From positions 38,322,401 through 38,386,400 of the forward strand of contig CM120641.1 in NCBI GenBank assembly GCA_051362555.1: a stretch of DNA of 64,000 nucleotides. The letters run 5' to 3'. Under the pieces are notes generated by a model. It was not told where the DNA came from, did not search any database, and was given only the letters and a program-made list of their open reading frames with translations. This stretch comes from Lingula anatina. Its lineage: Eukaryota; Animalia; Brachiopoda. The position numbers were made by a program, and so were the translations under genes. Shown one piece after another: positions 310-6,739 of this stretch (position 1 is the first letter of the stretch; each line of letters begins with the position of its first letter).

Positions 310-3300
310 ATGTGTTTAAGGAGAGATACTGCCGTCTCCAATCAGCAGGAGAATTATGCAGCCCTGATCCAGTACATGTTGAATGGCACCTATCCTTCTC
401 ACTATAGTATGGATCAGAAGAGAGCCCTGCGCAGAAAGGCAGAAAACCATTTTTTAGACGAGTCCACTATGACTCTCTCATATGTTGAATATGATTTAGA
501 TGGGGATAAGGTGTTCAGGAAAGTGGTGACAAATGAAGAGGAGCAACTGAGGTTGATAAAAGAACATCATGGGAGTGAACATGGTGATTATTGGAATGCT
601 ACTTTTCAAACACTTTGAGGTGCATTTGATATGCAATTGTGATAATTTTGATAAAGACGGGTTAAATTTGGCTTTGGAAAAGTACTTGATTATTTTATGT
701 TAAGTATAATTTTACCTTTGACTTAAGGTTAACCTGCATCTCCAGGCTGCCTGTGCAACATTGCACCATATGGAACCTAATTGGTGGTTCCTGCAAGTTT
801 TCAACTCATTTCAGAGTGGACATTTTAGAGTTTGGTTCAACAATAAATAATGTTTATGAAGCATAAGATTGTTTGCATATACCGGGGATATGTAGTTGAA
901 TGCAACTTTTATTTTAGTGTTGATATTTTTGTGGTTCCATTTCAGATCATCATGTGGGAAGAGATCTTACCTATAATGAATTGAAGGCCAAATACTTTTG
1001 GCCTGGTATCTCCAATGATGTCAGAAAGTATGTAGATAGCTGTGCTGTTTGTAGTCAGGCAGACAAAAGCAGAAAAATCGTAAGTAAATTATCAGTAAAA
1101 TTATCCTGGTATTGGATCATGACATGCAAACTTTTATTTTGCCATTATTTTAATATCAAGTTACCTCTTTCAAAATTGAAATTAAATGGTTTTTTTCAGC
1201 TGTGATTTACACAAACACATAGTAGTCAGAGGGGAAATCAGGTACCAGTTGTAATCAAACCAAAATAAATGAATGACTCATGCATCACATGTATTCAATT
1301 AGGATGCTGATGACTTTGATGAAGATGAGGAAGATGATGTTAATGATGAAGCTGAAGCGGAAGAAAATGTTGAGATATTGAAGAAAGAAAATGATGCTAC
1401 AGAAGAAACAAAAGATACAAAAAAGAAAAGGAAAGCTGGAACTTCTGGTAGGCATTTGGTCACGCTTATTACATAATTATACATATATACTTCATCTTCA
1501 TGCATATAATACTACTTCTATATGCAGACTGTATGTGTTTGTATGTATTCTGATTACTTGCAATTGTGTCTGTTCATGTTGTTGCTGGAACTATTTTTGC
1601 CAAAAAAATTAAAAAGACATAGTATTGTTTTTCTCAAAATTAACTGTGAGATAGAAGTTAGATAAAATTTCAACCCAAGTTAAAAACCAGCATAGTCAAA
1701 TTAATTGTTAGGGGATAGTGTTACTTTCTGCAGAATTTTATGCATAATGTGAGTGTAGAGATTTCCATAATTGCTAAATTATATTTGTGTTGTAGTTCAA
1801 TTTTTTCCTTTTTTAGGATGTAACTGGCATGAGCAATTATTTAATTGTCTCTAAAATGAAAAAAATATGGGCCACCAGCGACGTAGTTGTTATACGGTCA
1901 AATTTTAAATACACGCCAAATTTGTGTACGTGGCTGCTTATTGCGTTACCCCCAGAGCGACGCAAACGATTCTAAGGTCCTTTTAACCTGTTACGGAATG
2001 TGCATTTTTTATTGGCTTCTAAATATCACATGACGTCCAACACGCGACGGATGCACGTTACAAAAGCATGCGGCGACGTCGCGAGACGACTGCGTTGTCT
2101 TTCAGGCTCTCCCACCGAGTTGGATCATAGAAGTAGAGAAACTTCTATGGTTGGATGTATGCTCATAGAAGTACTTCTATGGTAATGCTGTGCTTTTTGT
2201 AAGAAGGTAGGTCTACTTTAATACAATGTAAATACTTGTAGGCATACTGTGCGATTAAATTGTATACATAGTATATTTTTATTAAAGGGTATGTTCTGCA
2301 GGGATTGTGCTTTTGTGTCGAATCGACATCAGCGGCTGTCCGCCGTACGGGACGGGTAAATATTCAGTTCGGACAGGTGAAGTTGCAGGGTTGGCTGTCC
2401 GACGAACATGTCCTGTTTTTTTTAGTAATGTGGAGCAAACATCTTAAAAAATCATTATCTGTTGCATACTGACTTCTTTTTGTCACTTCCTAGACGGCAT
2501 TGAAAAGAATGACCTACTTTTGGCACAAAACACATGCAGTCGCAAAACGAAGTCTGAGCAAACTTACCGCCAAATTATGAAAGTGAACACCCTCCAGAAC
2601 TTCATCAGACAAAATTTATTCACATATCAGGTTCACTACTGAATTTTTATTAAGTTAAAAATCTACGTGCTCTAGTAATAAAGACCCTTCCAAAAACAGA
2701 AACCACACACGTACTGTGCTGCATGGTTACAAAGCCAGATTGGACTAGATGAACTGGCTATATCTAGTTCGTTGTCCAGGCAACATACTGCCTATCAATC
2801 AAATACGTTGTATGCTATCTACTCACTATAGAAAGTGAAATCTTTTGGGACTGAAGTTCTTGTTGAAATGTTGTTTATTTGCCAAGATATAACCTGAAAT
2901 TTTGTATGATGTTTTCTTTAATGACTCTAGCATATATATCACCTCTGTTATTTACAGTTTAAAATTTAGTGTTGGAATATGATAAATTAACAAATATACC
3001 AGTGTGATATTGATGTAAGGAAGAAATTAGTAATACCAAATATGAGAATTTAAATAAAAAGAGGGGAACTTTTTTTGTACTGATTTCATTTAATTCATAT
3101 TTTTAAAAAATCAAACACATCATAGCCCCTTAAGAAGTTAAATTGTTAACATAAATATAAGTTTAGTATTATAAAATGAATATTCTTTAGTTTTCATTGA
3201 ACTTTATTCAAATATTATAAATATTGAATATTTTAATAAAATTAATTTAACAGTACCCCCTCCCCACTTTCTGGGGTATGAATAATAAAAAAAAAATGGT

Positions 3301-6300: not shown

Positions 6301-6739
6301 CTGCTTGCACTGTGGAAAGGGATTCACCACACCTGCAGCTCTGCGAGAACATGACAACATCCATACTGGCAACAGGCCTTTTAAGTGTAGGCACTGCGGA
6401 GTCGGGTTTGCTGAAAGATTTCGATGTCGTATGCATGAAAAAAGTCACACAGAGGTGAACACCACTGTTTTAACTACCACAGAGGGCCAGGTGGAAGTGG
6501 ACGAGAATGCAGAAGGAGCAGTGACATATGTTATTGAAGATGGGGGACAAGCTCCTACTCCAGGAGTCTCATACCTGATAAAGGATGCAGAAGGAGTACA
6601 GTACGAGATAGTGTATGGAGAGCAGGAGGTTCACACTGTGTCTGAGGCAGACTTTTCTGCCATTAACTTGTTAGCTAATGTGACTGACCAGGTGCAAGTT
6701 TCCAGAACAGTTAATCCTAGCGAAGAAACCCCACTCTAA
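310..6739 (+). CDS. C2H2 zinc-finger protein (7 fingers) with an N-terminal integrase zinc-binding (H2C2, GIN1/Ginger-like) domain and an acidic linker; ~480 aa if the ATG at 310 is the start (5' exons may lie outside the window)
   Basis: Phase-consistent GT-AG exons 310-583, 946-1079, 1303-1447, 4989-5066, 5377-5497, 5884-6086, 6252-6739 (1443 nt, divisible by 3). N-terminus [53 protein letters not shown] matches the integrase H2C2 signature. Then a D/E-rich stretch with KKKRK, then fingers CETC, CTVC, CNVC, CGVC, CNVC, CLHC, CRHC with TGEKPY-type linkers. Confidence 0.85.
1868..4860. mobile_element. Degenerate CACTA/EnSpm-like non-autonomous element in intron 3 of the zinc-finger gene (right end clear, left end eroded)
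   Basis: 4670-4860 is a dense array of short direct and inverted repeats (GGCCCACCAGC / GTTGGGCCGAC) ending ...GCTATCTG, resembling the ...GCTGTCTGGG end of the element at 30943-33771. A remnant of the same repeat (GGGCCACCAGCGACGTAGTTG) lies at ~1869-1889. The left boundary is inferred. Confidence 0.45.

What the first reader, a model, noticed from the sequence alone, without database searches (positions are those of the whole stretch)
310..6739. Domesticated integrase zinc-binding domain fused to a C2H2 zinc-finger array
Seen: exons 1-2 encode the YP..KR.LRRKA region plus the H-x-H...YFWP...CxxC module, split by a phase-1 intron. No DDE catalytic core follows; an acidic/NLS exon and seven C2H2 fingers follow in frame instead. 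Established: this module is the N-terminal zinc-binding/multimerisation domain of Gypsy/Ginger-type integrases (GIN1-like), and transposon-domain capture by zinc-finger factors is a known route to new regulators (e.g. the SCAN domain from Gypsy capsid). Inference: an invertebrate integrase-H2C2-ZNF transcription factor using the domain for oligomerisation or transposon control, possibly an uncharacterised family.
Basis: partly seen in the sequence, partly recalled or inferred. Interest (0 to 1): 0.7.

Follow-up and report, generated by a model that had tools for sequence, protein, structure and literature searches.

The report
Ancient integrase-derived zinc-finger gene family
This is the back half of a spliced lamp-shell gene, shared with snails and bivalves, that joins a transposon integrase lacking its catalytic residues and three copies of its zinc-binding front end to a row of zinc fingers, so it is likely an old, apparently undescribed gene regulator built from a jumping gene.

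Summary
The exons are real, but they are only the 3' half of the gene. The 480-aa model equals residues 547-1026 of a 1026-aa Lingula anatina RefSeq protein (478 of 480 identical). RNA reads join 1447 to 4989 in 8 of 8 runs (41 reads) and run on upstream of 310, so that ATG is internal. The whole protein has three YPYY-HHCC integrase zinc modules, not one, and an integrase core upstream of the window that has lost two of three DDE residues; 'no catalytic core' holds only for the window. The same domain order, with 5-6 fingers and a shared C-terminal motif, occurs in 7 gastropod and bivalve proteins whose cores have lost the triad and form one branch with Lingula (100/99). So this is a conserved host gene of brachiopods and molluscs, not a transposon. 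It likely works as a DNA-binding regulator that dimerises through the dead core (predicted only). HHCC plus C2H2 fingers is known from ZBTB11, but here BTB is absent (0 of 8). Seven paper searches found no description; the scan had not noted this family before. Donor element, target and function are open.

The parts
308..309 (+). Splice acceptor AG; the gene continues 5' of the window (546 more residues: HHCC module 1, dead integrase core, HHCC module 2)
   Evidence: Loose read ends before 308 in 3 of 4 runs read in frame, by eye, as the RefSeq residues just before M547 (8 of 10 alike); P0001 offset 547
310..583 (+). Internal coding exon: YPYY-type motif and first His ligand (H633 of the full protein) of HHCC module 3
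   Evidence: 100% match to P0001; joint 583>946 in 7 of 8 runs
946..1079 (+). Coding exon: H640, YFWP, C670xxC673 of HHCC module 3
   Evidence: Pfam Integrase_H2C2 49.1 bits; joint 1079>1303 listed in 6 of 8 runs, in 3 of them through an allele at 1078
1303..1447 (+). Coding exon: acidic stretch and basic patch KKKRK (1420-1434; NLS-like by inference)
   Evidence: Sequence; joint 1447>4989 in 8 of 8 runs, 41 reads
4989..5066 (+). Coding exon: start of C2H2 finger 1 (from 5021)
   Evidence: joint 5066>5377 in 8 of 8 runs
5377..5497 (+). Coding exon: end of finger 1, finger 2
   Evidence: Pfam zf-C2H2; the downstream joint 5497>5884 is not listed or 29 and rests on the open frame and the RefSeq protein
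5884..6086 (+). Coding exon: fingers 3, 4 and start of 5
   Evidence: Pfam zf-C2H2; joint 6086>6252 in 8 of 8 runs
6252..6739 (+). Last coding exon: fingers 5-7 (to 6448), low-confidence tail, stop codon
6593..6694 (+). Conserved C-terminal motif (VQYE...AI.LLA) shared with the mollusc proteins, ending in a predicted helix
   Evidence: Alignment A1; a profile from the 7 mollusc rows alone finds Lingula as best outside hit, weakly (11.0 bits, E 0.0027); helix 996-1010 in the model

Best explanation
The window holds the last seven exons of a spliced host gene, conserved in a brachiopod and in gastropods and bivalves, whose protein (HHCC - integrase core without its DDE triad - HHCC - HHCC - C2H2 array) likely acts as a DNA-binding gene regulator that is predicted to dimerise through the dead core. 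Shown: one mRNA over the HHCC-to-finger junction, the domain order in 8 species, loss of the catalytic residues, one branch in the core tree. Inferred: a YPYY-type integrase (Ginger1 DNA transposon or a YPYY-bearing Gypsy element) was captured once before brachiopods and molluscs split, lost catalysis, and its HHCC module was tripled; the fingers read a host DNA site; the core serves as pairing module much as BTB does in ZBTB11; the HHCC modules bind partners or nucleic acid and may repress, as the single HHCC of ZBTB11 is reported to do.
For: Junction reads in 8 of 8 runs, + strand in the stranded runs. 478 of 480 residues match XP_013409785.1. Pfam: Integrase_H2C2 in 8 of 8 members, rve weakly in 5 of 8, BTB, RT and protease families in 0 of 8 at E 0.1. 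All three Lingula modules have the H-x6-H-x29-C-x2-C spacing that PMC5384227 gives for ZBTB11, GIN1 and NYNRIN. Modules 1 and 2 keep both His and CxxC in 8 of 8. The model's residues 148-333 match the foamy-virus integrase core (Z 13.2, rmsd 3.0, 154 aligned). Lingula keeps D162 but has S221 and no Glu at the other two sites; 7 of 7 mollusc cores have none of the three; 15 of 15 RT/RNase H-linked cores keep D-D-E. The 8 cores form one side of a branch at 100/99 under two models among 40 cores. Mollusc-only profiles rank Lingula first outside the family for the core (119.9 vs 76.1 bits) and fingers 1-3 (94.8 vs 55.3). Domains are 17-47% identical to Lingula with invariant columns, linkers have none. 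14 of 27 listed allelic codon changes are synonymous against 21.6% expected (p 0.0005). Core homodimer: score 0.68, best control 0.00, contacts agree at least 94%, pLDDT at least 80; the mark was reached by 20 of 30 solved pairs and 1 of 23 single chains (eukaryotes 17 of 29 and 0 of 30); integrase core dimers are solved, so the pass may show likeness only.
Against: No DNA binding, nuclear location or target is shown. Conserved columns are not enriched in the predicted dimer interface (9 of 43 vs 17 of 120, p 0.33). Lingula's finger contact residues differ from the molluscan set in most fingers, so the target need not be shared. The HHCC tree leaves the three Lingula modules unplaced, so the triplication is not shown to predate the split. 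Module 3, the one in the window, has CC instead of CxxC in 6 of 7 molluscs and has lost its Cys in Pecten; its synonymous excess alone is not significant (3 of 8, p 0.21). Degenerate cores can attract each other in trees. Joint 5497>5884 was not listed. Imagin, a like dead integrase, is reported as cytosolic.
Confidence: 0.68

Rival explanations
1. The gene is a conserved host gene, but its job is transposon control: the dead core and the HHCC modules would poison or sequester active integrases or bind element ends, with the fingers aiming it at repeats.
For: It keeps the integrase fold and a predicted integrase-type dimer. PMC10547256 links metazoan zinc-finger genes to transposons (abstract start and passages). 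Lingula's finger contacts differ from the molluscs'.
Against: Among molluscs the contacts are stable: finger 5 xRSR in 6 of 7, finger 6 REY in 6 of 7, which fits a fixed target better than an arms race. No close paralogue was returned. The core is only about 33% identical at best to the active integrases in hand.
Confidence: 0.14
2. The family would be the protostome counterpart of ZBTB11: one ancient HHCC-plus-C2H2 gene that kept the core here and carries BTB in chordates.
For: Same HHCC spacing at the N-terminus and a C-terminal finger array; ZBTB11 clusters rank 2-4 in the Atlas feature search, at 0.84, a lead only.
Against: BTB in 0 of 8 members; 5-7 fingers against 12; PMC12062965 finds 808 of 828 BTB-integrase fusions in chordates. 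No protein with one HHCC and more than 8 fingers is among the 149 best hits, while transposon integrases are. At least four other HHCC-bearing host-like architectures turned up, so repeated capture is common.
Confidence: 0.1
3. The protein would work outside transcription, for example binding RNA or acting as a cytoplasmic scaffold in gonads, like Imagin.
For: Imagin (YPYY, H2C2, dead core) accumulates in oocyte cytosol (PMC12863088 abstract).
Against: Imagin has no C2H2 array ('c2h2' 0 occurrences); this protein has seven tandem fingers with TGEKP-type linkers and a basic patch.
Confidence: 0.07
4. A transposon remnant and a zinc-finger gene would lie side by side and be fused only by gene prediction.
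For: The 3.5-kb intron holds repeats and a small spliced pair of its own; no genome was held to count copies.
Against: 41 reads in 8 of 8 runs join 1447 to 4989; the same fusion is annotated in 7 other species.
Confidence: 0.01

Closest known systems
ZBTB11 (vertebrate transcriptional repressor; PMC5384227)
   Same: Integrase-like H-x6-H-x29-C-x2-C module in front of a tandem C2H2 array; host gene
   Different: ZBTB11 has one HHCC, a BTB domain and 12 fingers, and no integrase core is described; this family has three HHCC modules, a dead core, no BTB and 5-7 fingers; chordate versus brachiopod and mollusc
Imagin (malacostracan gene from a Ginger1 transposon; PMC12863088)
   Same: YPYY motif, H2C2 finger and integrase core without the DDE triad; multi-exon, ancient invertebrate domestication
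   Different: Imagin is about 585 aa with no C2H2 array and is reported as cytosolic; here the integrase part is fused to two more HHCC modules and a finger array
GIN1 and GIN2 (vertebrate Ginger1/GIN-derived genes; PMC2836005, PMC3424704)
   Same: Intron-bearing host genes that keep HHCC and an integrase-like core; GIN2 has a degenerate triad
   Different: No repeated HHCC and no C2H2 array described; GPY/F-type C-terminus marked in GIN2, not seen here
Ginger1 DNA transposons and YPYY-bearing Gypsy integrases (PMC2836005)
   Same: YPYY motif directly before the H2C2 finger, then the core
   Different: Active elements keep DDE and carry OTU/Ulp1 or RT/RNase H; none of these is found in 8 of 8 members
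KRBA2 and SCAND3 (mammalian Ginger2-derived fusions; PMC3575427 abstract)
   Same: Integrase/transposase core fused to parts of zinc-finger genes
   Different: Ginger2 origin (no YPYY motif per PMC2836005), mammal-specific; that they carry KRAB or SCAN domains is recalled, not from a call

Membership tests
ZBTB11 | N-terminal HHCC with H-x6-H-x29-C-x2-C spacing | tested here: met
   H81/H88/C118/C121, H495/H502/C532/C535, H633/H640/C670/C673; spacing from PMC5384227
ZBTB11 | BTB/POZ domain between HHCC and fingers | tested here: not met
   No BTB family in 8 of 8 members at E 0.1; an integrase core and two HHCC modules fill that place
ZBTB11 | 12 C2H2 fingers | tested here: not met
   7 in Lingula, 5-6 in 7 molluscs by pattern
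ZBTB11 | Orthology by phylogeny | not testable with these tools
   No ZBTB11 sequence was returned by any search
Ginger1 DNA transposon (active) | YPYY motif before the H2C2 finger | tested here: met
   Y..(Y/F)...YP...(F/Y)...LYY pattern in the three modules, read by eye from the alignment, against the motif as described in PMC2836005
Ginger1 DNA transposon (active) | Intact DDE triad | tested here: not met
   Lingula D/S/-; 7 of 7 molluscs lack the first and second Asp and the Glu; 15 of 15 RT/RNase H-linked cores and the Ulp1-bearing P0099 keep D-D-E
Ginger1 DNA transposon (active) | C-terminal OTU or Ulp1 protease domain | tested here: not met
   None in 8 of 8 members
Ginger1 DNA transposon (active) | GPY/F motif after the core | tested here: inconclusive
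   Not seen by eye in alignment A1; no profile for the motif was run
Ginger1 DNA transposon (active) | Terminal inverted repeats, 4-bp target duplication, many copies | not testable with these tools
   No genome held; the 5' half lies outside the window
Ginger1-derived host gene (GIN1, GIN2, Imagin type) | Core nests within Ginger1 transposases in a tree | tested here: inconclusive
   The family's neighbour is the unnamed P0129 (96/85); the one Ulp1-bearing transposase is near by path but not grouped with support; no named Ginger1, GIN or Imagin sequence was in hand
Gypsy LTR retrotransposon | Reverse transcriptase and RNase H in the same polyprotein | tested here: not met
   No such family in 8 of 8 members; the gene has spliced introns
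Tandem C2H2 zinc-finger transcription factor | Five or more tandem fingers with TGEKP-type linkers | tested here: met
   Seven fingers at 28-residue spacing; matches to solved finger-DNA complexes
Tandem C2H2 zinc-finger transcription factor | Sequence-specific DNA binding in the nucleus | not testable with these tools
   Needs binding and localisation experiments

The most novel reading that the evidence does not exclude
An undescribed, Cambrian-or-older transcription-factor family of brachiopods and molluscs in which a catalytically dead transposon integrase core is the dimerisation module and three integrase HHCC fingers are the effector modules: an independent invention of the ZBTB11 design, and one of several separate captures of the HHCC module by animal zinc-finger and THAP proteins.
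Probability: 0.5. Interest if true: 0.7.

Novelty: new variant of a known kind. Interest (0 to 1): 0.55.

Why it matters
Transposon-to-regulator fusions are well documented in vertebrates and thinly in lophotrochozoans. This family would be an old example shared by two phyla, with a design not found in my searches: a dead integrase core plus a tripled HHCC module plus a finger array. It also offers a comparative handle on an open question, what the integrase HHCC domain does in host proteins such as ZBTB11 (linked to human intellectual disability per abstracts), since the hits show the module captured repeatedly by animal DNA-binding proteins. Orthologues in Lymnaea, Patella and Haliotis make it testable.

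Tried and rejected
No whole genome is held, so DNA copy number, the 5' exons and synteny could not be examined. The run search listed no RNA holder; the nine runs came by species label and eight were laid. Word-based homologue searches missed the family: 1 hit of 16 candidates, 7 of 7991, 11 of 7989; only the HMMER search found it, so absence from other phyla is not shown. Exon 1 alone has no Pfam match beyond a weak, likely chance hit. The Atlas searches gave leads only (0.93 for an arthropod zf-C2H2 cluster with 157 of 256 features shared, 0.84 for ZBTB11, 0.86 for HHCC clusters). The HHCC tree (73 rows, 118 columns) did not place the Lingula modules. The core tree did not name the donor. 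Conservation is not enriched at the predicted dimer interface. The exon-2 frame matches solved integrases only weakly by sequence (E 0.057). No Rfam family in 1-10000. My first exon-4 end (5068) broke the frame and was corrected to 5066. The 111-bp inverted duplicate around the finger exons was considered as a transposon terminal repeat and rejected: 99% identity cannot date from a capture shared with molluscs, and it does not enclose the integrase part. The paper search returned nothing on ZBTB11 in invertebrates among the 15 listed. Earlier findings: 0 look-alike windows by sequence; by words 0 with all words, one near miss on a fungal H2C2-aldolase fusion.
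Full report
Observation. Splicing the seven exons 310-583, 946-1079, 1303-1447, 4989-5066, 5377-5497, 5884-6086 and 6252-6739 gives 480 residues without a stop, every intron GT..AG, with seven C2H2 fingers at 28-residue spacing from residue 196. The exon-2 frame scores 49.1 bits on Pfam Integrase_H2C2 (cut-off 25.5), and the frames of exons 5-7 match zf-C2H2 families. Raw RNA reads from eight runs with the same species label were laid on the locus. The decisive joint 1447>4989 is read in 8 of 8 runs (11, 4, 1, 2; 6, 3, 8, 6). 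583>946 is listed in 7 of 8, 1079>1303 in 6 of 8 (three through an allele at 1078), 5066>5377 and 6086>6252 in 8 of 8. 5497>5884 is listed in neither lay (one search hides 14 joints, hides none); depth there is low, and the tool drops human-like reads without notice, which may hit a TGEKP linker (my inference). Expression is low, a few reads deep in exon bins.

Exon 1 matches one protein at 100%: XP_013409785.1 (LOC106173264) of Lingula anatina, 1026 aa. The window model is its residues 547-1026, identical at 478 of 480. Positions 308-309 are a splice acceptor, and reads in 3 of 4 runs (6, 3 and 5 reads) carry about 70 letters before 308 that read in frame, by eye, as the residues preceding M547 (8 of 10 alike). 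The whole protein has three Integrase_H2C2 matches (143 bits) and a weak rve match at 161-245 (19.6 bits, under the cut-off of 32.6). A predicted structure (mean pLDDT 61.4, pTM 0.30, domains mostly 70-90, linkers under 50) matches the foamy-virus integrase core over residues 148-333 (Z 13.2, rmsd 3.0, 154 aligned) and Ty3 integrase over 3-344 (Z 12.5, rmsd 10.9). Against six retrotransposon integrases the core keeps the first Asp (D162), has Ser at the second (S221) and lacks the Glu. All three HHCC modules have the spacing H-x6-H-x29-C-x2-C and are 18-28% identical to each other (22 of 119, 34 of 121, 30 of 119).

It belongs to a conserved family. HMMER with modules 2-3 against 1.84 billion representatives gave 1076 hits at E 0.001, of which 150 were listed. 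A local domain scan of the 162 proteins then in hand found the full order HHCC - core - HHCC - HHCC - C2H2 in 6 of the 149 other representatives and in three cluster members: Haliotis asinina, Patella vulgata, Babylonia areolata, Lymnaea stagnalis, Pecten maximus, Sinanodonta woodiana, and Bulinus truncatus (whose representative is a fragment); a partial Plakobranchus ocellatus protein has two modules, six fingers and the C-terminal motif. Only 20 hits were looked up and 16 carried names, so the family's range is not known. In the alignment of 8 members the domains are 17-47% identical to Lingula and hold invariant columns (module 1 14 of 122, core 16 of 161, fingers 1-3 22 of 81, C-terminal motif 5 of 34), the linkers none. 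Among 40 cores the 8 form one side of a branch at 100/99 with Lingula outside the 7 molluscs (same support under LG+G4); seven or so other degenerate cores in the set stay outside, though long-branch attraction cannot be excluded. Profiles built from molluscs alone rank Lingula first among non-members for the core (119.9 vs 76.1 bits) and for fingers 1-3 (94.8 vs 55.3). All 7 mollusc cores lack the triad, while 15 of 15 RT/RNase H-linked cores keep it. Pfam finds no BTB, RT, RNase H, OTU or Ulp1 in 8 of 8 members. That brachiopods and molluscs split by the early Cambrian is recalled knowledge. Allelic differences in the reads also point to constraint: 14 of 27 listed codon changes are synonymous against 21.6% expected (p 0.0005); this uses only the variants the tool displayed (206 and 33 rows were hidden), and module 3 alone is not significant (3 of 8).

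Results against or limiting the reading. The HHCC tree groups mollusc modules 1 (88/79) and 2 (98/95, with one module 3) but leaves all three Lingula modules unplaced. Module 3, the one in this window, is the least conserved: CC in place of CxxC in 6 of 7 molluscs, no Cys in Pecten. The finger contact residues are stable among molluscs (finger 5 xRSR in 6 of 7, finger 6 REY in 6 of 7) but differ in Lingula except in parts of fingers 1 and 3. The donor is unresolved: the nearest core is an unnamed protein with a degenerate triad (P0129, 96/85), and the one Ulp1-bearing, Ginger1-like transposase (P0099) is close by path only.

Mechanism. Shown: one spliced host mRNA across the fusion, a dead core, conserved zinc ligands in modules 1 and 2 (8 of 8). 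Inferred: the tandem fingers bind DNA, as in solved finger-DNA complexes they resemble; the basic patch at 1420-1434 aids nuclear import. Two copies of residues 148-356 fold as a symmetric dimer with score 0.68 against a best control of 0.00, with at least 94% of contacts shared between runs and pLDDT at least 80; the mark was reached by 20 of 30 solved pairs and 1 of 23 single chains (eukaryotes: 17 of 29 and 0 of 30). Integrase core dimers are solved structures, so this shows likeness, not binding, and conserved columns are not enriched at that interface (9 of 43 vs 17 of 120, p 0.33). By analogy with ZBTB11, whose HHCC Cys116 is needed for repression of TP53 (PMC5384227, passages), the HHCC modules may be effector or nucleic-acid-binding modules. 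I put the conserved-host-gene reading at about 0.95 and the dimeric DNA-binding regulator at 0.68.

Comparison with what is known. HHCC plus a C2H2 array is known from ZBTB11, the largest class in a screen of 10 million proteins, 808 of 828 in chordates (PMC12062965, passages; its supplement could not be read, and may list these proteins). YPYY + H2C2 + dead core is known from Imagin (PMC12863088, part 1 of 8 and passages; 0 occurrences of 'C2H2', 'mollus' or 'Lingula'), and from GIN2 (PMC3424704, passages). [quoted passage not shown] A survey of transposon-derived factors across animals covers six other families and Lingula but, in the passages seen, no integrase-HHCC family (PMC10027918); PMC10547256 has 0 occurrences of 'integrase'. 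KRBA2/SCAND3: abstract only (PMC3575427). Seven searches bearing on the family (the last with six accession or locus ids, 0 papers) found no description; subscription papers are not in the library. The protein itself is in RefSeq as uncharacterised. It fails the BTB and finger-number tests for ZBTB11 and the DDE test for an active element, so it is filed under neither; it likely works like ZBTB11 in design.

Verdict. Real, expressed, conserved; a new variant of a known kind (integrase domesticated into a zinc-finger protein). Interest 0.55.

Noticed in passing
window 4862-4972 and 6799-6909: A 111-bp inverted duplicate, 99% identical, one copy just before the exon-4 acceptor and one in the 3' UTR, bracketing the four finger-coding exons. 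3' UTR reads mis-lay on the intron copy. Recent local duplication or assembly artefact; could pair in the pre-mRNA.
   Followed up: partly
window 3444-3561 and 3855 onward: An AG..GT-bounded exon-like piece inside intron 3 is joined to 3855 in 3 reads of one run (table 5c); stops in all three frames. No read joins it to exon 3 in the lists; such a join would give a finger-less isoform.
   Followed up: partly
proteins P0017, P0021, P0031 (Dreissena, Mya, Mactra), P0015 (Lytechinus), P0045/P0164 (krill): Other proteins with two to six HHCC modules plus C2H2 fingers but no integrase core; their modules form separate branches, suggesting further independent captures.
   Followed up: partly
proteins P0016, P0019, P0022, P0025, P0093, P0140, P0168 (two named as teleost fish): A family with three HHCC modules interleaved with THAP domains and a C-terminal D-Tyr-tRNA deacylase domain.
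   Followed up: no
window 5033-5035: A common RNA allele changes all three bases of one codon (Cys200, not a zinc ligand, to Leu) in 3 of 4 runs.
   Followed up: no
window 4671-4861, 2467-3014, 7069-7700, 30803-31293, 33471-33824: Palindromic and tandem repeat-like elements; those at 2467-3014 and 7069-7700 draw many partly fitting reads from elsewhere in the transcriptome.
   Followed up: no
window 19298-21746, 24690-28483, 36434-36790: Neighbouring exon frames that look like an RNF41-type RING ligase, alpha-L-fucosidase (two similar first exons at 24690 and 25150) and a ZIP11-type zinc transporter; names recalled from the translations, not tested.
   Followed up: no
protein P0129: Unnamed 512-aa YPYY-HHCC-core protein with a degenerate triad, nearest neighbour of the family in the core tree (96/85); may be another domesticated integrase.
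   Followed up: partly
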